IMG/VR virus record: IMGVR_UViG_3300033463_000005
Span: 32,001-96,000 of that record
Length of the DNA stretch: 64,000 nt
Reading direction: 5' to 3' (one strand)
From: a virus
Taxonomy: Duplodnaviria > Caudoviricetes
In this document: in pieces, positions 1,668 to 22,163 of the stretch
Position numbering within the stretch: the stretch's first letter is position 1
Layout of the letters: each line of letters opens with the position of its first letter
The notes under the pieces: model-generated
What the model was told of the DNA's origin: nothing
Database searches by the model: none
What the model saw: only the letters and a program-made list of their open reading frames with translations
Position numbers and translations under genes: made by a program

Positions 1668-2742
1668 TGGTAAAACGTTCATTGCATTATATTCCGCATC
1701 AAAGTTGGGATTGAAACCATTGATTGTTGCACCAACATCATTATTGAAAAACCAATGGATTGAGAATATCGTTGAACTTGGTATTGATAAGAATGATATT
1801 GCAACAAAGATATGGGATGCACCCGATAAGAAAGTTTGTGTTGTAACAATTTCCTCATTGGAATTGGCAATCCGTGATGATTGGAATCGGTTATTGAAAA
1901 CATTGGATAATTCCGGATTTGGTATCAAAGTTATCGATGAAGCGCATCTTCATTTGAAAGGTATGCTGAAATTTGATGCTTTGTGTAATATCAAACACAA
2001 CTGGTATCTGTCCGCAACACTTGGAAGATCTGATGCAAAAGAGGATCGTATTTTAAATCGTGCTTTAAAAGATGCGGAACGATTCGTTGGAAATTCATCG
2101 TATGAAGAATATCAAAATGAATATGTCCAAGTATATTTCCAAGATATCTACTATTTCCCGTCATCCAGTTTATGTAAAAAATATTTCAAATATGGATCAA
2201 AGGGATTAATCAGAGCTTCTTATTATAAGATGCTTTTGAATTATCGCGGTGGAGATGCATTCATACGAAATCTGATTACGTTGATGAAACGCACAAAAGA
2301 ACTGTTGAATTATGATGCAAAGATTCTGTTGCTGGTTCCGTTGATTGACATTTTGAAACGGCTGTATGATGTTATGAAACGTGATCCATATTTCAGCAGA
2401 TACAAATTTGCAATCATTGAGGGTCATCTGACATTGTCGGAAAGACGTGAAGCAATGGAATCGGATTTCATTCTGTCAACATCTCTATCGATGGGAACTG
2501 GTGTCGATGTTTCAAATCTTGGTGCTGTGATCAATTTTGACCAATATGCATCACCGATTATTACGGAGCAGATCTTTGGTCGACTTAGAGATCGAGGAAA
2601 GGAAACATACTACATCGACGTTTGTGATCATGTCCGGCAAGCACGCGTGATTGCAAACTGGGGTGAACGCAGAAGAATCTTGATTCCATATTTCCCGGGT
2701 GCAAAACAAACGATCAAAAAGTTTTCACGCATTATATGCTAA
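1668..2742 (+). CDS. SF2 (UvsW-like) helicase, exon 2; spliced product 481 aa
   Basis: GKT, motif Ia IVAPTSLL, DEAH, SAT, motif V TGVDV, motif VI QIFGRLR. Confidence 0.88.
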
Positions 2743-2754
2743 AACATGAAAGTA
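2743..2754 (+). promoter_or_regulatory. Late-type phage promoter AACA-N6-TA
   Basis: AACA TGAAAG TA matches the AR9 late promoter consensus. The final A coincides with the first base of the downstream RNA closing stem. Confidence 0.6.
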
Positions 2755-2931
2755 ATCCGGAATGTGTTTCGAATCGTTACACCACGTGAATCTTCTCTCG
2801 AAAGATTGGTTACCTGACCCAATCTTTGGTTCACGCAAAATGTTGAGATTCCATCATATGCGAGTCATGATGGGTGTGTTCCTCCGAACCTCCGAGCACA
2901 ATGCCATTCTCGATTAACAACATTCCGGATT
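2754..2931 (+). ncRNA. Candidate structured small RNA 1 (multibranch, anti-SD loop)
   Basis: A 12-bp closing stem (2754-2765/2920-2931) encloses hairpins 2801-2827, 2851-2873 and 2875-2900. The last carries two CCTCC motifs. Bounded by a promoter and a terminator; no ORF in the track. Confidence 0.7.
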
Positions 2932-2942
2932 TTAGGGTTGTA

Positions 2943-2966
2943 AGTGTGGGGCTTCGGCCCCACACT
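2943..2966. terminator. GC-rich hairpin terminator
   Basis: AGTGTGGGGC-TTCG-GCCCCACACT. Confidence 0.75.
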
Positions 2967-2994
2967 GTATCCTATTATTCTGACTTTTCATATA

Positions 2995-3003
2995 TATATT
3001 ATT
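2995..3003 (+). promoter_or_regulatory. Early-type phage promoter TATATTAT
   Basis: The motif recurs upstream of non-structural genes and resembles the phiKZ early consensus TATATTAC. Confidence 0.6.
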
Positions 3004-3077
3004 AATATGAAGAGAGAATAAATTACTCTCTTTACAAAATTTTTACTGGTCTCTATGAGACCGGAAAGGAGAAAACA

Positions 3078-3413
3078 ATGTTTGTAGTAATATTAAAAGT
3101 TAGGCGGATGACCACAGAAAATGATGAGGTTGTCCTTGACGAAAGATCAGAGAGAGTAATCTCTCTGAGAGCCGATTTGGCTTCCGCAATTGTGGATGCC
3201 AAAAAAGCATCCGACAGTATATGGCTGTCCACATGCCTACTTGAGTATGAAACGACCATGGAATGCGAGCTTGGTGGGCGGTTGAACAACACATGGTGTT
3301 CGCCCGGCGAAAATCCCACAGAATTCGGTGGATATATAGACGATGGCGTCAACCACTTCAATTGGACGACCATTGTTGAGGAAGGTGACTTTTGGGAAGC
3401 AGAAGAATCTTGA
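3078..3413 (+). CDS. Hypothetical acidic early protein
   Basis: RBS GAAAGGAG, downstream of an early-type promoter. Confidence 0.7.
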   Translation: MFVVILKVRRMTTENDEVVLDERSERVISLRADLASAIVDAKKASDSIWLSTCLLEYETTMECELGGRLNNTWCSPGENPTEFGGYIDDGVNHFNWTTIVEEGDFWEAEES

Positions 3414-3470
3414 TTCCATTCTTCTGCTTCCCAGGAAATAACGATCAATCGGAACCGGATTGAAAGGGGT

Positions 3471-3857
3471 ATGTATATGAAACGATATATTTGCAATGTA
3501 GATATTGGGCATCACATTTATACCGAGCTCGGAGTTCTTTGGATATGTGGAGAAAATGGACTCTTCGTCACCTATGACGAAAATATTACGATATCGTGGC
3601 GGTATGATAATGGCCGTGCAACCGGTCCACGGTTGGAAACAGATGCCATTAGAAGAGCAGCCGAGAGAGTCTCGGCTGCGGCAAATGCTGGTGAGCTCAC
3701 AGAGAAGCACATTGCGGATCTCGTATCCGCAATGATCACGGGCAAATATGATATGACGGAGGATGAGAGATATATCCTCCGGGCAAAGCGCGGTTATTAC
3801 CGTGCCAGAACTGGTGAACTTGTAAAGGTTCACCAGAGGAAGAGAAGGGGCGCTTAA
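3471..3857 (+). CDS. Hypothetical early protein with basic C-terminus
   Basis: RBS GAAAGGGG; ends in a terminator hairpin; contains the 22-nt match to candidate sRNA 2. Confidence 0.65.
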   Translation: MYMKRYICNVDIGHHIYTELGVLWICGENGLFVTYDENITISWRYDNGRATGPRLETDAIRRAAERVSAAANAGELTEKHIADLVSAMITGKYDMTEDERYILRAKRGYYRARTGELVKVHQRKRRGA

Positions 3858-3878
3858 TGCGCCCCACTCTTTTTTTTT
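3847..3878. terminator. Terminator between convergent genes
   Basis: GGGGCGC-TTAAT-GCGCCCC followed by a T-run. Confidence 0.7.
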
Positions 3879-3880
3879 GT

Positions 3881-6016
3881 TTAAAATGTCTGATTGACGT
3901 CATAGAAGAATGATAGATCAGATACAGAAACCTGCTGATCCAATTCTGATTTTTTTGCAATACCAGCGTATTGATTTCTTTGATATCCATATTCGTCGCG
4001 ATCATTTTGACCAATCACATGCATTGGGTCTTGAGATGTTAAATCACGCAGCATTTGATTTTCAAATGCATACGGATTTGCATATGGAATCATATTGTTG
4101 ATTTGTTCGACTTCTAATTCCCGGTCATATTCTTTGACAACTTGTTTTGCATTTTTAAATACACATAATGTTTTGTCAATGTTAAACCGTTCAATTTTGT
4201 ATCCATAATAGAAAACATATAGCACATGGTTGTATGCCATGACCATGTCATCATGGAAACCGGTTGCTGCTTCAACTTTTCCATTTTTAGCACGGACGAG
4301 ATTCGTAATATCCCGTGCAAGATATCTTGTGCACAGCAGATGCGTATAATCTTTCACATGAAGCTTCAATAAGTCGAACATATTCTTTCTGATTTGTGGT
4401 GTGACGTATGTTCCAATATATCCTTTTTCTTTTGCTTTCCGTTTCATTGTCATTTCCGGAGTTTCGTATTCTGTAACATTCTTTGCCATATCCAATTTTG
4501 GATCATGATAGAAGCGATGTTCCAGATGTGATTCCTGAATGAAATCGACAATCGCTTTACCAATGGAATTTGTTTCAACACAGAATACACCGGATGGACA
4601 TAGTTTTGCAATGTCCGTAATGATACGCATCAGATCCATCACACCGATATATGGTGAAATCAATTCACCAACGACTTCAAATGTATATGGATGCACAATG
4701 CAGATCGCGGTATTATCTCCATCACCACCAGCAGCAACGTCGATTCCGATTAGATACGGGATTGTGATATCGAAATACGGTGTATCGGAATTTAAATCGG
4801 TTACTTGTACTTGATGTTTGTATACATATAAGAAGAATTTCTTTCTTAAGAAGATTTCATAATCTGGCTGTTTTGTATTTTGTACAATGTAATCAATGTC
4901 TTTTTGTTCAAACAATACGCTGCCAGAACCACGGTATCTTTGTAACAAAACACCGCGTCGATACTCGTCTGTTTTACCAAGATTTACAACCAATTCTTGA
5001 TGTTGTTGACGTAACCATTTATCATCTTTGCGTAGTTGTTTATAATTGAATTCTATATAGAAACCTGTAATCGGTTTACGAACTTCACCATTATCCAAAA
5101 CAACTTCATCGAACAATGCTTTCAATTCGTCTTCTGTCAAATCATATAACTTTTCACTGAATGTTGGAGTTGCTTCAATCATTCGTAATGCATCACGACC
5201 TTCATCGGTTTCCAAATCTCCAGGTGTAGAATACATCATGATGCATGTTCTACCACCGACAGCACGAATGATATTACGTGCAGATGTAATAGCTGGTGCG
5301 CCGCCTTCCATAACATCTGCGAAGTGTGGAATATATTCATACTCATCGAATGCACCTGCTGCGGAAGTCGCACCACGTAATGCATCGCGAGCTTTTTCTT
5401 TGGAATCAGATTGTGCCAATACAGCAAGTTTTGTTTTATGTGCATCATATATCAATGACTTTGGTCCAGGCGGTTTTGTTTTTTCATACCATGGATTCAG
5501 ATATGAAGGTAATGCATAAACATAATCACGGAATAATGTTGCATTCTGTAAACAGCGTTCCAATTTCAAATGCATCATTGGAATTGTTGCATTCTGATAT
5601 TCGAACAGCATCATGTATTCCAGGATAATGGTACACCATGTCGTCTTGTGTGTCTGACGCGGTTGACATAGTTTGAAATCAAAACTGTGAATGAAGCACC
5701 AGCATATTGCCAATGATGCTCGTGTCAATATTGGTGGGACATTACCAGCACCGATGACGGGAACACGTGCAATCTCTCGAAAAAAGAACCATGGATTCTT
5801 TTTACATTCCACAACAATTCTTCCAATTTCTTCGGCTTTGATATCACTTTTATATGGATCGATATCCTGAACGTTTAAATTCGGATATGCGACTTCTAAC
5901 ATGAAATACCAATTCTTGATACCAAGTGTTTTTAATTCTTGAGCAGTTGTTAAGAATGATGCGTTCTTTGTTCCAAAGTCGTAAAACTTATTTCCAATCT
6001 TAACAATTTTACTCAT
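3881..6016 (-). CDS. terL: Terminase large subunit
   Basis: Walker A-like PRQTHKTT, Walker B FDEYE, STPG coupling motif, nuclease GIDVAAGGDGD, ETNSIG, HDDMVMA. Start placed after RBS GAGGAGGT. Confidence 0.9.
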   Translation of the reverse strand: MSKIVKIGNKFYDFGTKNASFLTTAQELKTLGIKNWYFMLEVAYPNLNVQDIDPYKSDIKAEEIGRIVVECKKNPWFFFREIARVPVIGAGNVPPILTRASLAICWCFIHSFDFKLCQPRQTHKTTWCTIILEYMMLFEYQNATIPMMHLKLERCLQNATLFRDYVYALPSYLNPWYEKTKPPGPKSLIYDAHKTKLAVLAQSDSKEKARDALRGATSAAGAFDEYEYIPHFADVMEGGAPAITSARNIIRAVGGRTCIMMYSTPGDLETDEGRDALRMIEATPTFSEKLYDLTEDELKALFDEVVLDNGEVRKPITGFYIEFNYKQLRKDDKWLRQQHQELVVNLGKTDEYRRGVLLQRYRGSGSVLFEQKDIDYIVQNTKQPDYEIFLRKKFFLYVYKHQVQVTDLNSDTPYFDITIPYLIGIDVAAGGDGDNTAICIVHPYTFEVVGELISPYIGVMDLMRIITDIAKLCPSGVFCVETNSIGKAIVDFIQESHLEHRFYHDPKLDMAKNVTEYETPEMTMKRKAKEKGYIGTYVTPQIRKNMFDLLKLHVKDYTHLLCTRYLARDITNLVRAKNGKVEAATGFHDDMVMAYNHVLYVFYYGYKIERFNIDKTLCVFKNAKQVVKEYDRELEVEQINNMIPYANPYAFENQMLRDLTSQDPMHVIGQNDRDEYGYQRNQYAGIAKKSELDQQVSVSDLSFFYDVNQTF

Positions 6017-6448: not shown

Positions 6449-8662
6449 TCAGGAGTATTGTTTTAATTGTTGCAGAATTGGTAAGAGTTGCGTGAATCGC
6501 TCATAGATGGATTCAATATAATCACGTGAGCATCCTTCAAACAGATTGGTTTCGTCGATCATTTTATAGAATTCTATCATGTCTACGAATGGATGTGATT
6601 CTTGATAATACATGAAATAGGAATGCATGATCAAGAAGAATCGAAGATCCGGAATGGATACATCGATTTTCACATTATTGATGTAAACAGGATACGTTTT
6701 ATCAACCGCGCCAATTGTTGAAAATCCAAAGATGTCTGGACGTAATTTGATACCCATAAATTTGAGCGTATTCTTCAGGTTATCCAATTGTGGGAATTGA
6801 TTGTACTTCGACAGATCAACACCCATATCATTCAGCTGCGACATCAGAATGGAATTCTCTTCATATTGTGATCCACGGAAATATGTTGTGATTTTTGAGA
6901 AATCCCGAACACCAACTCCAGCGAGGAAATTGTATGTGTCATATTCACCAAATTTCACGGGGTTATCGGAATAATGACGGAGATTCTTATTGAACTGATG
7001 TGTCTTAACAGGTTGATCATAAAGCGTTGTACGACCAGTCGAAACTGCGGCCAATGATTTAGAAGGCTCCTGCTTTAACACCCAAGTATACTGGAATCCG
7101 ACTGGATATTTATCATCCAATTTGACCCAACGTTTATGAAGCTTTGTGAATACATTATAATGCTTCATAATATCCGGGTATTTATCATATGCTTCCAGAA
7201 TTGCGTCACGAATGCAAACTTCATTAAACGGTTTGATTTGAATAATGTTTCCATTTGTCAGAATGTCATTGATGACAGCATTCGGATTCTCGGCATATAA
7301 CCGGCGAATTTCATCCGCTTGTTGTGGATTGAAGATTCCGACGAAGTCAGAAGTAATCTTCACAATGTCATCATTGGAAGCACCGTCATGATGCATTTTT
7401 GCAATATGTTGATTCATGCGATCCATCATGAACGTCATGGAACCTTCGTATGTTGCGAATGCAATGATACGGTTTGGAACCGCCAACGCATTTGCTAACA
7501 TATGAATCGGTCTACCATCATCCGTTCTCGGCATATCTTCCGTCGGAATGATTTTGGAAATAACGGATTTGTTTCCGTAACGTCCAACGACTTTCTGACC
7601 AACGGCAATCTTCATGGGTTGTAACATCGTGAATTTGATAATGGTATCCGCAATGTATTCCTTTGTAACCCATGTTGAATGATTCAAATACTTTTCTGCT
7701 TGATGGTAGATATCCAGCAGCGAAGTATCATCTTGAAATTTATCATCAAGCAATGCGGAAATATATGCATAGATGTCAGAATACCATTGACGAATTTGTG
7801 TCAGATACATGTTGAATTGCTCGTTCTCAACATCAACATTTGAAAAGATATCAATATCTACAACAGTTCCATGTGAGAAGTAATTCGTGTCATTGATATG
7901 TGGGATGGATGCTTCTGCAAATGTTGATACATATGAATTCTCACGAATGGAGCATAAGATGTTATCCTGCACCTCTTCACCAATATTCGGAAATGGTTTG
8001 TATTCTCCGTCTCTGCCATAACGGTTCAACAGGAATGATTTCTTTGACACATTTACTGTGACAATGTCAACCATATCATATTCCAATGCTTTTGCGGCAT
8101 CCGAAGAAATGATCAACGAATCTTCTGTTAATTGTGGAAGAACCGCATATGCCATTCGAAGATTCACACCAGCACAGTAATTGTCATTTACATATGAAGA
8201 TGATTGTGCAATTGCAGCGCCCTTCTTCAACACATCTCCTTCACGAATCTGTTGAATGTAATTCTTCATTCTGAATCCATATTTCTCAACAAGATTCACG
8301 GCCGGTTTATAAATCTTACAAATGTATTTTCCCGTCGCTAAATTCTGAAAGATGTATGCAATTGGAGAAAATGGTGCATTTGGGAATTTTACAAACTTTT
8401 TCATCAATTTGTAATCGTCAGTTGCACGGACATTCCATGATGAACGTTTTCCAAATTCATTTTCTGCACCGGAGAAAATCATAGGGAATTCCGGATTCCG
8501 CAGAACCAATCTCTGTGACACATGCTTCACCATCATTCCACCACGTGTTGTAGAGATCTTTTCAGGAAATCCCATTGCAGACATTCCAGTTAGTGACAAC
8601 GGATCGACATCAGCACATCTCCGATCGATATCCGATGCATTATTCATAACTTGTTTCGGCAT
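6449..8662 (-). CDS. Multisubunit RNA polymerase beta subunit, C-terminal half (probably non-virion RNAP)
   Basis: GVNLRMAY, TEDSLIIS, GQKVVGRYGNKSVISKI (compare GDK..GRHGNKG), MPRTDDGRP, PVKFGEYD. Early-type TATATGAT promoter at 8749-8756. Confidence 0.9.
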   Translation of the reverse strand: MPKQVMNNASDIDRRCADVDPLSLTGMSAMGFPEKISTTRGGMMVKHVSQRLVLRNPEFPMIFSGAENEFGKRSSWNVRATDDYKLMKKFVKFPNAPFSPIAYIFQNLATGKYICKIYKPAVNLVEKYGFRMKNYIQQIREGDVLKKGAAIAQSSSYVNDNYCAGVNLRMAYAVLPQLTEDSLIISSDAAKALEYDMVDIVTVNVSKKSFLLNRYGRDGEYKPFPNIGEEVQDNILCSIRENSYVSTFAEASIPHINDTNYFSHGTVVDIDIFSNVDVENEQFNMYLTQIRQWYSDIYAYISALLDDKFQDDTSLLDIYHQAEKYLNHSTWVTKEYIADTIIKFTMLQPMKIAVGQKVVGRYGNKSVISKIIPTEDMPRTDDGRPIHMLANALAVPNRIIAFATYEGSMTFMMDRMNQHIAKMHHDGASNDDIVKITSDFVGIFNPQQADEIRRLYAENPNAVINDILTNGNIIQIKPFNEVCIRDAILEAYDKYPDIMKHYNVFTKLHKRWVKLDDKYPVGFQYTWVLKQEPSKSLAAVSTGRTTLYDQPVKTHQFNKNLRHYSDNPVKFGEYDTYNFLAGVGVRDFSKITTYFRGSQYEENSILMSQLNDMGVDLSKYNQFPQLDNLKNTLKFMGIKLRPDIFGFSTIGAVDKTYPVYINNVKIDVSIPDLRFFLIMHSYFMYYQESHPFVDMIEFYKMIDETNLFEGCSRDYIESIYERFTQLLPILQQLKQYS

Positions 8663-8776
8663 AATAGATACTCCCTTCCGTAACATAAATTGTATTTGTT
8701 AGTTACAATGCTTATGATATTAAACACAATCATTGTACATACACGGAAATCATATACATGCCAAAATAAAATTAAT

Positions 8777-18919: not shown

Positions 18920-19888
18920 TTATAAATCTCTCTTAAATTTAACCTTGTACACCTGCATCAAATCATCTGTCGCAGATGAATTCTCACCATCCCGGACGAC
19001 ATCGACAATCTTTGTATCCGGTTTCGGATAATCGGGAAGTAGTTCTCCTGATGCAGAATATGTAATGAAATCATAATCAGAATCTGTATCACCAAGAAGA
19101 ACATATGTTGTTGGGTTATCTTTTTCATATTGCACAGTTGGATTAATAGACTGCGCTTCACCGATAATATCATCTAATACCACAGAAGCTTGATCTGGAT
19201 TTACCGTTGGGAAATTTGTAGATGCTGTAGCCGTGTCAACTTGTGTTTGTGATGGATTCATATCGAAGATTGTATCCATAATCGTCCTTCCCATTTCAAA
19301 TGGAGTCGAAGGTCTTCCGCCAGATACTTGATTCGGATTCGCTCCTTGTCCCGACTGTTGCTGTTGCTTAATTTTCAATTCAGCAATGTTTTTCTTAATT
19401 CCAATCTGTTCTTTATTGATTGCGGTAATTGCGGAACGAGCAGATGTCAATGCTTGCATTGCTGCAATGTCATCTTCATTCAATCCAAATTTTCCTTTGT
19501 CATTTAAGCTCTCCAGCAGTTTCCGTTCAAATACACGGATCACTTTAATTTGATCCGCAGCCAGTGTTCTCAATGCCGCAATGTCAGATGTAAATATCTT
19601 ATTTGGATCTAAACGTTCTTGTAGTGGTCCAAGTTCCAACTGGGATGATAGCTTCTGCATGATATCAGATGAAGCACCCCAGTGTCCACTTGCATATGGT
19701 GAAATATATCCATCGATATTTGGATTAAATTTCGGACGTTCGGAAAATTGTGCATATCGATCTAACCACACATGTGGATCATCTGCAGGACGATCCCATT
19801 CAGCTTGTGGTTGTGCTTGCATTGTTTCCGCCACTTGCTCGAATGATTGCATTTGATCTGCTTGACGGAATGAATCTAACATACTCAT
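18920..19888 (-). CDS. Hypothetical coiled-coil protein
   Basis: 322-aa ORF, RBS GAGAGGAG. Confidence 0.8.
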   Translation of the reverse strand: MSMLDSFRQADQMQSFEQVAETMQAQPQAEWDRPADDPHVWLDRYAQFSERPKFNPNIDGYISPYASGHWGASSDIMQKLSSQLELGPLQERLDPNKIFTSDIAALRTLAADQIKVIRVFERKLLESLNDKGKFGLNEDDIAAMQALTSARSAITAINKEQIGIKKNIAELKIKQQQQSGQGANPNQVSGGRPSTPFEMGRTIMDTIFDMNPSQTQVDTATASTNFPTVNPDQASVVLDDIIGEAQSINPTVQYEKDNPTTYVLLGDTDSDYDFITYSASGELLPDYPKPDTKIVDVVRDGENSSATDDLMQVYKVKFKRDL

Positions 19889-19919
19889 GGAGATTCTCCT
19901 CTCAATATACTATTATAAA

Positions 19920-19998
19920 ATGATAGAGAGGGTGGAGGATGTTAGGAGGTTGACATATCACGGGCAAATATGATATGAATGGCAGCCCTCTCTATCAT
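19920..19998 (-). ncRNA. Candidate structured small RNA 2 (or 5' leader of the 19888 gene)
   Basis: 13-bp closing stem 19920-19932/19986-19998; inner hairpin CATATCA/TGATATG; two anti-SD motifs on the minus strand; AACA-N6-TA promoter at 20009-19998. Confidence 0.6.
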
Positions 19999-20035
19999 AT
20001 CCTTTTGTTCAGATAAATTCAAATATCAAAAAAAA

Positions 20036-20062
20036 ATATGGAGGGACATTGTCCCTCCATAT
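20036..20062. terminator. Hairpin terminator
   Basis: ATATGGAGGGAC-ATT-GTCCCTCCATAT with a T-run on the minus strand. Confidence 0.75.
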
Positions 20063-20065
20063 CGT

Positions 20066-21571
20066 TCATTCCATTTTGGTTAAACCATACAAACCATTCA
20101 ATGCTTCTTTCTCTATCGGGAAAGCTGCACTCAAATCAGGACGAATATTATATGCTTTTGATACCATCAATTTTTCTGCTTGTTCATTTGCTTCATCCGA
20201 CCATATTCCAGTACTCTTAACCGTATCACCATCGTAGTCGCCATTCAAATTAATCAGTCTTGCATTTGACATCTGCAACACATCAATGAACGATGTTGAA
20301 GCAACAGCATGGGATGCTTGTGGATCTACTATTGGATATGTCTGATACGTTTCACCCATGAACTGAACTGGGATTGTATTATTCGTTGACAACACATGGA
20401 TCTTTGTAAAGAATGCACCAAGATAATCACCGATTGGATATCGAACGGTGTAAACATGCTTGTTTCCTTTGACACAAGCGTTGTAGCAACATAGATAAAT
20501 AACGTCAGTTAATGTCAATTCTCTTGTGATCGGTTCTTTCGTTTTCAAGTTCATGGCAGAGAAAGTGATGGGTCTCTTATTCTCTGGATCCGCATAAAGG
20601 ATTCTAAATCTACTACCAGGGTTTTGCATAAAGATTCGCATCAATTCTTCCATCGCTCTATCATCATAGATATTATCAATGTCCGAACGTTTGATATCAT
20701 CCGGACTTGGATCAAATGAAACGATATTATCATATGACAAAAATTGTTTCATTTGGAATTTTACAAATGGATGGAACATGGACACGAGTGACATCATTGG
20801 ATAACCCGTTCGATAGATACCGATCACTGGATTATTGGATCGATAGGATGGTGCAGAAATGACATTACGAACAGTTCCAACTGTATTCTTTGCCAATAGA
20901 TTCTTTTGTAAGAATCCATTCTTTGTGCCACAATATTTATGGACATACGAGTATACTTCGATTACAGCATTTTGAATCTGGTTGTATACCTTATATACAT
21001 TTGCCGTTGTATGTGCTGTGACACTCTGATATCCAAGTAGCTTAATATAAATAGAATTCAATTCGGATTTAACGGGTCTACCATTTCGCATACCAGTTGG
21101 ACGCATTGCGGGTGGAAGTACCAAAAGCTTATCAATGAATAATAAACGTTTTGGAGTCTTGATTAAAATCTCAATATTTTCTTCTCGACGAGATTTCATT
21201 GTTTTCGCAATATCAATCTGATCCCAGATCTCATATAGATCTTTTAAACCACAATACTTACCATTTTCATTTTCGTGTAAGACACCGTCTACAAGATCAC
21301 ATTTAATTTCTGCAAATGCCAACTTTCGAATGATTCCACCAGATCGACCGATGATAGTTTTTGCAATATGTGGATTAAATACGTGGATTGGTAATTTCAG
21401 ATATCCACATTTGTATTTTCTTTCATCTTCCGTTTGTCCGAATATTTCCTCTGAAAATAATCCGGTTGGATTCCATTGGTTTGTTGATCGATATATTGCT
21501 GCGGATGTGACTTCTTGTAAATTATTAACTTTGATATCTTGGTCGATATCATACAATCCCTGAATCTTCAC
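20066..21571 (-). CDS. RNA polymerase beta' subunit, N-terminal/catalytic part (probably virion RNAP)
   Basis: GLFSEEIFG, VLPPAMRP, RNVIS, RYP, catalytic NGDYDGD. GTG start after AGGAGGT. Late-type AACG-N6-TA promoter at 21611-21600. Confidence 0.9.
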   Translation of the reverse strand: MKIQGLYDIDQDIKVNNLQEVTSAAIYRSTNQWNPTGLFSEEIFGQTEDERKYKCGYLKLPIHVFNPHIAKTIIGRSGGIIRKLAFAEIKCDLVDGVLHENENGKYCGLKDLYEIWDQIDIAKTMKSRREENIEILIKTPKRLLFIDKLLVLPPAMRPTGMRNGRPVKSELNSIYIKLLGYQSVTAHTTANVYKVYNQIQNAVIEVYSYVHKYCGTKNGFLQKNLLAKNTVGTVRNVISAPSYRSNNPVIGIYRTGYPMMSLVSMFHPFVKFQMKQFLSYDNIVSFDPSPDDIKRSDIDNIYDDRAMEELMRIFMQNPGSRFRILYADPENKRPITFSAMNLKTKEPITRELTLTDVIYLCCYNACVKGNKHVYTVRYPIGDYLGAFFTKIHVLSTNNTIPVQFMGETYQTYPIVDPQASHAVASTSFIDVLQMSNARLINLNGDYDGDTVKSTGIWSDEANEQAEKLMVSKAYNIRPDLSAAFPIEKEALNGLYGLTKME

Positions 21572-21680
21572 GATAATACCTCCTTGACATGTAGGATGTT
21601 ATCGAGACGTTTTTATATTCATCCATTACAGAACAAAAAATAAAGAGCCGAAATGTTCCCGCATTCCAGCTCTTTATTTT

Positions 21681-21836
21681 TTATTTCGACCATGGTCTTG
21701 CAATGGATGATTTACTCTTTATTGCTTTATGGCAATAGCGAGATTCAATCATCTGTGCAGTTTCCATGATCGATTTCCGTGTGTTCGATGCTTTGGGGTT
21801 GCAGGGAGACACACGGATAATGGATGATTGGTGCAT
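21681..21836 (-). CDS. 51-aa basic protein, absent from the ORF track (MHQSSIIRVSPCNPKAS...RPWSK)
   Basis: Strong RBS GGAAAGGAGGTG; followed by a hairpin and T-run at about 21635-21682. Confidence 0.6.
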   Translation of the reverse strand: MHQSSIIRVSPCNPKASNTRKSIMETAQMIESRYCHKAIKSKSSIARPWSK

Positions 21837-21878
21837 TCTGACACCTCCTTTCCAAACGTGGGATTAGATTGGGGCGCA

Positions 21879-22163
21879 TCAGCGCCCCAACCGTCCCATG
21901 TTCTTCTTCCACCGAGCGATGTACTCGCTCGGCGTTTCTTTATTTCTGATTGTCACCCAGAAGACAATCAGAATATTCGCACAGATCATCCAAGGATGAT
22001 CTTCCGCGATGGGGTTGTACCCCTCACGGATCAGATAATACAGGGATACAATCGTATTGATCCCTGTGAACCCGAAGAACATTAACCAGGATACAAACCA
22101 ACCAATGTTCTTCCAATTGAGGTGTCTTTTCACAGACGCCTTTCTTTCTAGCTTCTTAACCAT
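21879..22163 (-). CDS. Small membrane protein (94 aa, two predicted TM segments)
   Basis: Start MVKKLERK after RBS GAAAGGAG; two hydrophobic stretches; early-type promoter at 22227-22234. Confidence 0.65.
   Translation of the reverse strand: MVKKLERKASVKRHLNWKNIGWFVSWLMFFGFTGINTIVSLYYLIREGYNPIAEDHPWMICANILIVFWVTIRNKETPSEYIARWKKNMGRLGR

What the first reader, a model, noticed from the sequence alone, without database searches (positions are those of the whole stretch)
19920..20009. Candidate sRNA 2 carries a 22-nt exact antisense match to an early gene 16 kb away
Seen: ATCACGGGCAAATATGATATGA occurs at 19957-19978 (non-coding) and at 3735-3756 (inside the 3471-3857 CDS). Read from the minus-strand promoter, the RNA is perfectly complementary to that mRNA. 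Its CATCCTCC (19941-19934) also complements GGAGGATG at 3758-3765, though not collinearly. A 22-nt identity is unlikely by chance in 64 kb. Inference: a trans-encoded antisense or guide RNA that shuts off a possibly toxic early gene late in infection. Alternatives: a shared protein-binding hairpin or DNA site, or a 5' leader controlling the 19888 gene.
Basis: partly seen in the sequence, partly recalled or inferred. Interest (0 to 1): 0.8.

Follow-up and report, generated by a model that had tools for sequence, protein, structure and literature searches.

The report
Late-gene RNA leader matching an early gene
The 22-base match is real and unique, but the "small RNA" is the conserved, folded 5' leader of a late gene of an uncultured giant phage, and it is still open whether its perfect complementarity to one orphan early gene is used or is only a copied scrap of DNA.

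Summary
Observation confirmed. The 22-mer occurs exactly twice in the 258.5-kb phage genome (3735-3756 and 19957-19978, both on the + strand), and chance does not explain it.

The interpretation needs revision. The phage has AR9-type promoters. A late promoter (AACA-N6-TA, 20009-19998, minus strand) puts the predicted RNA start at A19998, the first base of the 13-bp outer stem. The hairpin is therefore the 5' leader (110 nt) of the conserved 322-aa late gene, not a separate sRNA gene.

All orthologous loci keep this promoter, and all but one keep a 5' hairpin after it. The two nearest relatives share an expanded version, with:
- compensatory changes in 11 of 17 outer-stem pairs
- an inner hairpin with a conserved loop, UUUGYCC
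- a single-stranded CCUCCU stretch

The antisense 22-mer is the apical part of that inner hairpin.

The target gene (3471-3857) is an early, GC-rich orphan with no homologues. The 22-mer fills exactly the unpaired linker between two perfect hairpins in its mRNA. Pairing is thermodynamically favoured.

My odds: about 0.5 for a cis-acting leader plus a DNA-level copy in the orphan gene, and about 0.3 for real trans-antisense shut-off. No expression data or informative relatives could be obtained.

The parts
20035..20063 (-). Intrinsic terminator of the upstream RNAP beta-like gene (20066-21571)
   Evidence: 13-bp stem followed by a T-run. The gene is identified by phrog_2986.
19998..20009 (-). 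AR9-type late promoter AACA-N6-TA. The predicted start is A19998.
   Evidence: Read. The consensus comes from PMC5312081. The motif is enriched upstream of genes, 24 found against 7.2 expected. It is kept at the same place in all nine distinct orthologous loci read.
19889..19998 (-). Predicted 110-nt 5' leader of the late mRNA for the 322-aa gene
   Evidence: Fold -29.7 kcal/mol, z -3.2. No terminator lies between it and the ATG at 19888.
19920..19998 (-). Expanded 5'-terminal stem-loop. The outer stem arms are 19986-19998 and 19920-19932.
   Evidence: Across three phages, 11 of 17 outer-stem pairs change on both sides and 92% of cells are paired. It is single-copy in the genome by covariance model.
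19954..19977 (-). Inner hairpin: 8-bp stem with apical loop AUUUGCCC (19962-19969). The antisense 22-mer is 19957-19978.
   Evidence: The loop is fully unpaired in the ensemble. The loop consensus UUUGYCC is conserved in L008 and L009 while the stems differ.
19934..19949 (-). Single-stranded C-rich stretch: CCUCCUAA (19942-19949, conserved) followed by CAUCCUCC (19934-19941, only in this phage)
   Evidence: Unpaired in the fold. CCUCCUWA is present in L008 and L009. It is one of only three double CCTCC sites in the genome.
19886..19903 (-). Shine-Dalgarno sequence GAGAGGAG (19896-19903) and start codon (19886-19888) of the 322-aa gene
18920..19888 (-). Conserved 322-aa late gene of unknown function
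   Evidence: 145 homologues, none carrying a functional name. The synteny RNAP beta - this gene - 1250-aa gene is kept.
2990..3009 (+). AR9-type early promoter ATATATATATTAT-N6-G. The predicted start is G3009.
   Evidence: Consensus from PMC5312081.
3471..3857 (+). Orphan early ORF (128 codons, GC 47%) that holds the second copy
   Evidence: No homologue in two protein searches apart from near-identical strains. GC content. Coding status is uncertain, because several frames are open across this region.
3735..3756 (+). The 22-mer, which is exactly the unpaired linker between hairpins 3710-3734 and 3757-3781
   Evidence: Centroid fold of 3690-3880, z -8.4. Mostly unpaired in the ensemble.
3847..3877 (+). 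Terminator of the early two-gene operon

Best explanation
The 19920-19998 hairpin is the 5'-terminal stem-loop of the late mRNA of the conserved 322-aa gene. It is transcribed from an AR9-type late promoter, and the predicted start is the first base of the stem. All but one of the relatives read carry a short 5' hairpin at this position. In this phage and its two nearest known relatives the hairpin is enlarged by about 55 nt. The enlarged part folds into an inner hairpin with a conserved apical loop (UUUGYCC) and shows a conserved single-stranded CCUCCU, an anti-Shine-Dalgarno-like stretch. Inferred role, acting in cis: the hairpin protects the 5' end of the mRNA and controls translation of the downstream gene. 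The CCUCCU would compete for the gene's own GGAG site, and the conserved loop on a covarying stem would be a probable protein-binding operator. The 22-nt identity with 3735-3756 arose by a DNA-level copy of the apical part of this leader into a young, orphan, hairpin-rich early gene. The leader is the ancestral copy. The resulting 22-bp RNA complementarity follows from that copy and is not shown to be used.
For: Shown:
- Promoter motif at 20009-19998, with the start falling on the stem's first base. The consensus is from PMC5312081.
- The motif is enriched upstream of genes and retained in all orthologous loci.
- Three phages fold to the same architecture independently, with z of -3.2, -4.1 and -4.6.
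- 11 of 17 outer-stem pairs are compensatory, and slid controls fall to 37-51% paired.
- The sense strand folds 5-8 kcal/mol better than the antisense strand in L008 and L009.
- The element is single-copy and matches no Rfam family.
- The orphan gene has no homologue, so the leader structure cannot have evolved to serve it.
- In the orphan gene the copy carries only part of the hairpin: 4 bp can pair there, against 8 in the leader.
- The same 1.6-kb region holds other long ectopic repeats in orientations that cannot give antisense pairing. The 21-mer at 2669/3399 lies inside a diverged duplication of about 80 nt of the helicase 3' end, and there is a 19-mer at 2359/12996.
- The + strand of the insert is homologous to the 5' UTR and start of an opposite-strand early mini-gene in L010 (score 37 against a shuffle maximum of 30), so this locus has a history of rearrangement.

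Inferred: the cis functions and the direction of copying.
Against: - The identity stops exactly at the feet of the two flanking hairpins and fills the only long unpaired stretch of a very structured mRNA. Selection for an accessible target site would give this. A neutral scrap explains it only if the flanks were later overwritten.
- Cofolding favours the duplex by about 20 kcal/mol, and the 8-nt loop is fully exposed.
- In relative L008 the same apical loop has an 11-nt complement at +3 to +13 of a predicted early mRNA (164 of 3000 shuffles do as well).
- No mechanism is known that copies exactly 22 nt without flanking homology.
- There are no expression data. The transcription start is predicted, not measured.
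Confidence: 0.5

Rival explanations
1. Functional trans-antisense control. The late leader, or a 5' fragment of it released by premature termination or processing, pairs through its exposed apical loop with the unpaired linker of the early orphan mRNA. This forms a 22-bp duplex that host RNase III cuts or that blocks the mRNA, so the accessory early gene is switched off once late transcription starts. The copy in the orphan gene was kept because it put that gene under this control.
For: - Perfect 22-nt complementarity between a predicted late RNA and a predicted early RNA.
- The target is exactly the inter-hairpin linker.
- The loop is fully unpaired and cofolding gains about 20 kcal/mol.
- The orphan gene holds a second CGGGCAAA at 3780.
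- In L008 the loop has an 11-nt complement at the start of a predicted early mRNA (p about 0.05).
- 5'UTR-derived sRNAs are documented in giant phages (PMC11512511).
Against: - The target is an orphan limited to near-identical strains, so no co-variation can be shown.
- The leader structure and loop are conserved in phages in which no homologue of this gene is known.
- The orthologue in this genome of the L008 early leader lacks the complement.
- 14 of the 22 antisense bases sit in a stable stem.
- No terminator-like U-run follows the outer stem in the relatives.
- The phage encodes no RNase III.
- Neighbouring long repeats are not in antisense orientation.
Confidence: 0.3
2. The + strand is the relevant one. 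The insert would be the decayed 5' end of an opposite-strand early mini-gene of the kind still intact in L010 and L011, and the 22-mer would be a shared coding fragment (ITGKYDM in both places) left by a partial gene duplication.
For: - Ours(+) 19942-19981 aligns with the L010 early 5' UTR and start, 33 of 42 columns.
- An early-promoter-like stretch lies at 19904-19922.
- The only open frame through the 22-mer is the same in both places.
Against: - The promoter-like stretch departs from the early consensus, to which the virion polymerase is reported to be very sensitive.
- There is no ATG/GTG/TTG start with a usable spacing from the SD-like site.
- The small + strand ORFs of ours, L008 and L009 use different frames over the shared part (read).
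- Wobble pairs and folding energies favour the minus-strand RNA.
- There is no similarity beyond the 22 nt.
Confidence: 0.07
3. A shared double-stranded DNA site: an operator for a phage DNA-binding protein, or a host-type promoter (TTGACA-18-TATGAA with an upstream TG on the + strand at 19950-19979).
For: Identical DNA at two loci. A perfect -35 hexamer adjoins the copy at 19950.
Against: - The copy at 3735 has no -35 element.
- The scan did not call a promoter there.
- AR9-type phages transcribe with their own polymerases.
- Relatives conserve structure, not sequence, at this position, which points to RNA.
- The TGACAT is part of a module shared with L010.
Confidence: 0.05
4. Chance coincidence.
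For: A handful of other unexplained 19-23-nt repeats exist in the genome.
Against: About 0.01 such repeats are expected genome-wide (composition). None was found in shuffles.
Confidence: 0.02

Closest known systems
5'UTR-derived sRNAs of giant phages (201phi2-1 sRNA005 and the phiKZ gp182 leader; PMC11512511)
   Same: A structured RNA at the start of a late or structural gene's leader, kept at the same place upstream of homologous genes in related jumbo phages, with conserved secondary structure and unknown function.
   Different: Those RNAs were defined by measured starts and premature termination sites. Here nothing is measured and no terminator-like signal follows the stem. There is no sequence relation. 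The 322-aa protein has no match in cultured phages. Here a candidate target with 22-nt complementarity exists.
AR9 late promoters and long 5' UTRs (Lavysh et al. 2017, PMC5312081)
   Same: The early (ATATATATTAT-N6-G) and late (AACA-N6-TA) motifs are the same. That paper notes 5' UTRs of 26-491 nt as possible translational controllers.
   Different: This is an uncultured phage, probably from a gut or rumen sample. The late motif here also tolerates AACC and AACT. No individual AR9 leader structure has been described that resembles this one.
Kissing-loop antisense RNAs cut by RNase III (lambda OOP against cII; CopA/CopT) - from general knowledge
   Same: A stem-loop RNA presents a loop complementary to the target, and a long perfect duplex forms that would be an RNase III substrate. 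Lambda OOP likewise silences a gene of another temporal class.
   Different: Those RNAs are cis-encoded, on the opposite strand of the target, so complementarity is automatic. Here the two loci are 16 kb apart and the complementarity had to be copied.
C-rich sRNAs of Firmicutes that bind Shine-Dalgarno sites (RoxS, RsaE) and 5'-terminal stabiliser hairpins (ermC and aprE leaders) - from general knowledge
   Same: Single-stranded CCUCC motifs next to hairpins, and a hairpin at the very 5' end of an mRNA.
   Different: No homology. The motifs sit inside an mRNA leader, and an action in cis on the gene's own ribosome-binding site is as likely as an action in trans.

Membership tests
AR9-type late (non-virion RNAP) promoter | AACA, six bases, then T and A/G, the last base being the start | tested here: met
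   AACA 20009-20006, N6, T19999, A19998. Consensus quoted from PMC5312081.
AR9-type late (non-virion RNAP) promoter | The motif recurs upstream of many genes of the phage and at orthologous positions | tested here: met
   24 found against 7.2 expected in upstream regions. Seven sites lie 26-35 nt from a start codon. The motif is present in nine distinct orthologous loci.
AR9-type late (non-virion RNAP) promoter | Measured transcription start | not testable with these tools
Trans-encoded base-pairing sRNA | Own promoter and own terminator giving a discrete short RNA | tested here: inconclusive
   The promoter is present. The only candidate end is the outer stem followed by UUUUAU. Its closing pairs are A-U rich, the relatives lack a U-run, and the terminator scan found nothing there.
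Trans-encoded base-pairing sRNA | Accessible complementarity to a target mRNA | tested here: met
   22 nt perfect. The loop and the target linker are unpaired. Cofold -134.6 against -114.4 kcal/mol for the two RNAs apart.
Trans-encoded base-pairing sRNA | Pairing conserved or co-varying in relatives | tested here: inconclusive
   The target has no homologues. Only near-identical strains are available. L008 shows an 11-nt loop complement in an early leader, p about 0.05.
5'UTR-derived sRNA of giant phages | Same position upstream of homologous genes, with conserved secondary structure | tested here: met
5'UTR-derived sRNA of giant phages | Premature termination site shortly after the start | not testable with these tools
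   This needs RNA end mapping.
Any Rfam family | Score at or above the family's gathering threshold | tested here: not met
   The best hits are far below threshold at both loci.
Guide RNA of an RNA-guided nuclease (TnpB/Cas12f kind) | Effector gene in the genome | tested here: not met
   No PF07282 match in the 258-kb genome.
Diversity-generating retroelement template/variable repeat | Repeat pair near a reverse transcriptase, differing at adenines | tested here: not met
   A reverse transcriptase exists about 100 kb away. The 22-mer pair is identical, including its 9 adenines, and is not near it.

The most novel reading that the evidence does not exclude
In this clade of AR9-like jumbo phages, the apical hairpin of a late mRNA leader would be a trans-acting antisense module that silences early accessory genes at the early-to-late switch. 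New targets would be recruited by copying the hairpin sequence into an accessible linker of a newly acquired, heavily structured early gene. That would be a phage-internal temporal switch wired by RNA pairing between loci 16 kb apart.
Probability: 0.3. Interest if true: 0.75.

Novelty: new member of a known kind. Interest (0 to 1): 0.42.

Why it matters
Regulation in jumbo phages that carry their own RNA polymerases is thought to rest mainly on promoter classes. RNA-level control there is almost unexplored, and the few sRNAs found in giant phages have no known targets. This locus offers two things. The first is a previously undescribed conserved, covarying leader structure in an uncultured AR9-like clade. 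The second is a concrete candidate pair, a late leader and an early mRNA, that can be tested with two in-vitro transcripts and one reporter. If the pairing is used, it would be a rare case of trans-antisense control between temporal classes in a phage. If it is not, the locus still documents how short patches and hairpins are copied into young phage genes.

Tried and rejected
- DNA and protein searches of cultured phages: no match.
- IMG/VR and GTDB scans for the 22-mer and for the element's pattern: nothing found.
- A 17-base module pattern gave 7 and 102 hits. I had underestimated the chance rate; about 140 hits are expected in 596 Gb. They are noise and were not used.
- Search of the records behind L007, L008 and L012: not held. 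The 141-kb contig of the L009-type phage gave a gene map but no DNA, so the co-variation test could not be run there.
- Covariance model of the element: only the one copy in the genome.
- GGGCAAA, the complement of the loop, is not enriched genome-wide: 18 sites against about 21 expected.
- A partial third site at genome 19006-19023, with 15 of 17 matches plus a bulge, is near chance level and in a gene of unknown class.
- General excess of 12-14-mers shared between 3000-3900 and the rest of the genome: not significant.
- Extended gapped similarity around the 22-mer: none.
- Small + strand peptides: frames are not conserved.
- Host-type + strand promoter: rejected as above.
- RNase III and TnpB families: absent.
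- MAFFT misaligned the inner hairpin of L008, so its conservation rests on the separate folds.

Full report
**1. The observation**

The 22-mer is present without mismatch at 3735-3756 and 19957-19978, both on the + strand. With up to three mismatches there are no further copies in the window or in the whole genome. The genome is a 258,509-bp virus record, and the window is its bases 32001-96000. The 22-mer is absent from the rest of IMG/VR. From the base composition, about 0.01 exact repeats of this length are expected in the genome. In a listing of all exact repeats, nearly all long ones are terminators, early promoters, tRNA genes or ribosome-binding sites. Only about eight of 19 nt or more remain unexplained.

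**2. What genome this is**

The window encodes split beta-like subunits of a multisubunit RNA polymerase (6449-8686 and 20066-21571), a large terminase, a helicase and a type II topoisomerase. It is a jumbo phage with its own polymerases. Its repeated AT-rich motif (for example 2990-3009, ATATATATATTAT-N6-G) matches the early promoter consensus measured for Bacillus phage AR9. The late AR9 consensus is AACA-N6-TA/G, with the last base as the start (PMC5312081). AAC[ACT]-N6-TA occurs 24 times in oriented upstream regions against 7.2 expected, and seven of these sites lie 26-35 nt before a start codon. No cultured relative was found. The relatives are metagenomic contigs, several with ruminant-gut sample names.

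**3. What the "sRNA" is**

The element lies between two minus-strand genes. Read on the minus strand, the spacer contains in order:
- the terminator of the polymerase gene (20063-20035)
- AACA-N6-TA at 20009-19998
- a 13-bp outer stem that begins exactly at the predicted start, A19998
- the ribosome-binding site
- the ATG at 19888

No terminator lies between the hairpin and the gene. The hairpin is therefore the first 79 nt of a predicted 110-nt leader of the late mRNA for the 322-aa gene.

The same promoter motif sits at the same place in nine distinct orthologous loci (L003, L008, L009, L010, L011, L013, L020, L021, L022). In all but L020 it is followed at once by a hairpin that starts at or next to the predicted start. 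In most loci this hairpin is short, 5-7 bp. In this phage and in the two closest relatives for which the leader sequence is available (L008 and L009, 65-66% protein identity in the flanking gene) it is enlarged by about 55 nt.

**4. The enlarged leader is a conserved structure on the minus strand**

Folded separately, the three leaders give the same architecture (z -3.2, -4.1, -4.6):
- an outer stem of 13-17 bp
- an inner hairpin of 8-11 bp, with apical loop AUUUGCCC (ours), UUUGUCC (L009) or UUGCCCAU (L008)
- a 3' internal loop of 11-19 nt that shows CCUCCUWA unpaired

On an alignment in register for the outer stem, 11 of 17 pairs change on both sides and 92% of cells pair. Sliding the partners drops pairing to 37-51%. 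The three inner stems have unrelated sequences. Several pairs are G-U on this strand, and the sense strand folds 5-8 kcal/mol better than its complement in L008 and L009. A covariance model finds only this copy in the genome. Rfam has nothing similar.

The antisense of the 22-mer (19978-19957) covers the 5' arm, the whole loop and five bases of the 3' arm of the inner hairpin.

**5. The other copy**

ORF 3471-3857 is the second gene behind the early promoter at 2990-3009 and is followed by a terminator. At 47% GC it is far richer than the genome (37-39%). It has no homologue in two very large protein searches apart from near-identical strains and no domain. Several other frames are open across the region, so even its coding status is not secure.

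Its 3' part is one of the most structured stretches of the genome (z -8.4 on shuffles; genome scan). It is a row of perfect hairpins. The 22-mer is exactly the unpaired linker between hairpins 3710-3734 and 3757-3781. Cofolding leader and target gains about 20 kcal/mol over the separate folds. The 8-nt loop of the leader is fully unpaired and the target linker mostly so. Pairing is physically plausible.

**6. Which copy is the source**

The leader hairpin is conserved in relatives, and its stem is complete there (8 bp). In the orphan gene only 4 bp of it can form, because the upstream flank differs. The orphan gene is confined to one phage species. I infer that the leader is the source and the orphan gene received a copy. 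The identity ends sharply on both sides.

**7. Used, or a by-product?**

For a by-product:
- The leader's structure and loop are conserved in phages in which no homologue of this gene is known. They must serve another purpose.
- A conserved loop on a covarying stem next to an anti-SD-like stretch is the usual look of a translational operator.
- The 1.6 kb around the orphan gene holds three of the genome's few long unexplained repeats, and the other two cannot give antisense pairing. The 21-mer at 2669/3399 lies inside a diverged duplication of about 80 nt of the helicase 3' end, read in another frame. The 19-mer at 2359/12996 joins two sense strands.
- The insert in the leader is itself homologous, on the + strand, to the 5' UTR and start of an opposite-strand early mini-gene that is intact in L010 and L011.
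- A 14-nt stretch of the leader is inverted relative to L009.

DNA-level patching is therefore common at these loci.

For use:
- The match fits the only accessible linker exactly.
- The loop is exposed and the energetics are favourable.
- A second CGGGCAAA lies 45 nt downstream in the same gene.
- In L008 there is an 11-nt complement to that phage's own apical loop at +3 to +13 of a predicted early mRNA, 2 kb away. Shuffled sequence does as well in 164 of 3000 trials.

The orthologous early leader in our genome lacks such a complement. The L009-type genome could not be read.

I put the by-product reading at about 0.5 and true antisense control at about 0.3.

**8. Other readings**

- A + strand host-type promoter overlaps the copy at 19950-19979 but is absent at 3735. 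It is not expected to matter in a phage of this kind.
- Small + strand ORFs exist in all three phages but in different frames.
- No TnpB-like effector and no RNase III are encoded.
- A reverse transcriptase exists elsewhere in the genome, but the pair shows no adenine-specific differences.

**9. Comparison and verdict**

The closest described objects are the 5'UTR-derived sRNAs of giant Pseudomonas phages. They are conserved in position and structure upstream of a tail gene, and their targets are unknown (PMC11512511). The long 5' UTRs noted for AR9 are also close. This element is a new member of that kind, with the added point of a concrete candidate target.

The "trans-encoded sRNA or guide" reading is not established, and its listed alternative, a 5' leader of the 19888 gene, is the best-supported identity.

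Noticed in passing
window 2650-2730 and 3385-3460: The exact 21-mer at 2669 and 3399 lies inside a diverged duplication of about 80 nt of the helicase gene's 3' end. At 3393-3433 the copied part forms one arm and the loop of a perfect 16-bp hairpin. This looks like the scar of an inserted cassette (2743-3385) carrying a terminator, an early promoter and ORF 3078-3413.
   Followed up: partly
window 2853-2900 (+): A hairpin followed by two CCUCC motifs lies between the helicase stop and a terminator. It has the same layout as the inner part of the leader. Together they are two of only three double-CCTCC sites in the genome.
   Followed up: partly
window 3690-3880; genome 17880-18360 (minus strand); window 21600-22000 (minus strand): GC-rich early cassettes whose coding regions are rows of perfect hairpins. 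They are among the most structured 120-nt windows of the genome (z -4.5 to -7.7 after correction for GC).
   Followed up: partly
L023 (G000:C1:153273-156821); genome 155854-155962 and 243170-243278: The phage encodes a 369-aa reverse transcriptase (RVT_1, E 3e-13). A 109-nt inverted repeat pair with 15 scattered mismatches starts just downstream of it, with the partner inside a 746-aa gene. This is a candidate diversity-generating retroelement. The mismatches are not adenine-specific between these two copies.
   Followed up: partly
L008 398-411 and 2418-2428: In this relative the apical loop of the late leader (UUUUGCCCAUG) is complementary to bases +3 to +13 of a predicted early mRNA for a 93-aa ORF, 2 kb upstream.
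   Followed up: partly
L010 1756-2010; L011 1539-1800: A small early gene (64-68 aa) with its own AR9-type early promoter and terminator is inserted on the opposite strand between the polymerase gene and the late promoter. Its 5' UTR hairpin holds the ribosome-binding site in the loop and is homologous to the insert in our leader.
   Followed up: partly
window 19905-19918 versus L009 244-257: A 14-nt stretch between the outer stem and the ribosome-binding site is the exact reverse complement of the corresponding stretch in L009. In our sequence it is flanked by the inverted repeat CCTCTC/GAGAGG, which suggests a small inversion.
   Followed up: no
genome 1-110 and 258381-258490: A 110-nt exact direct repeat lies at the two ends of the record. 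It is probably terminal redundancy or an assembly overlap of a complete genome.
   Followed up: no
genome 19006-19023 (minus strand): A partial third site, GGGCAAA followed after one extra base by 8 of the 10 bases that follow it in the 22-mer, lies at the 3' end of a 69-aa gene. It is close to chance level.
   Followed up: partly
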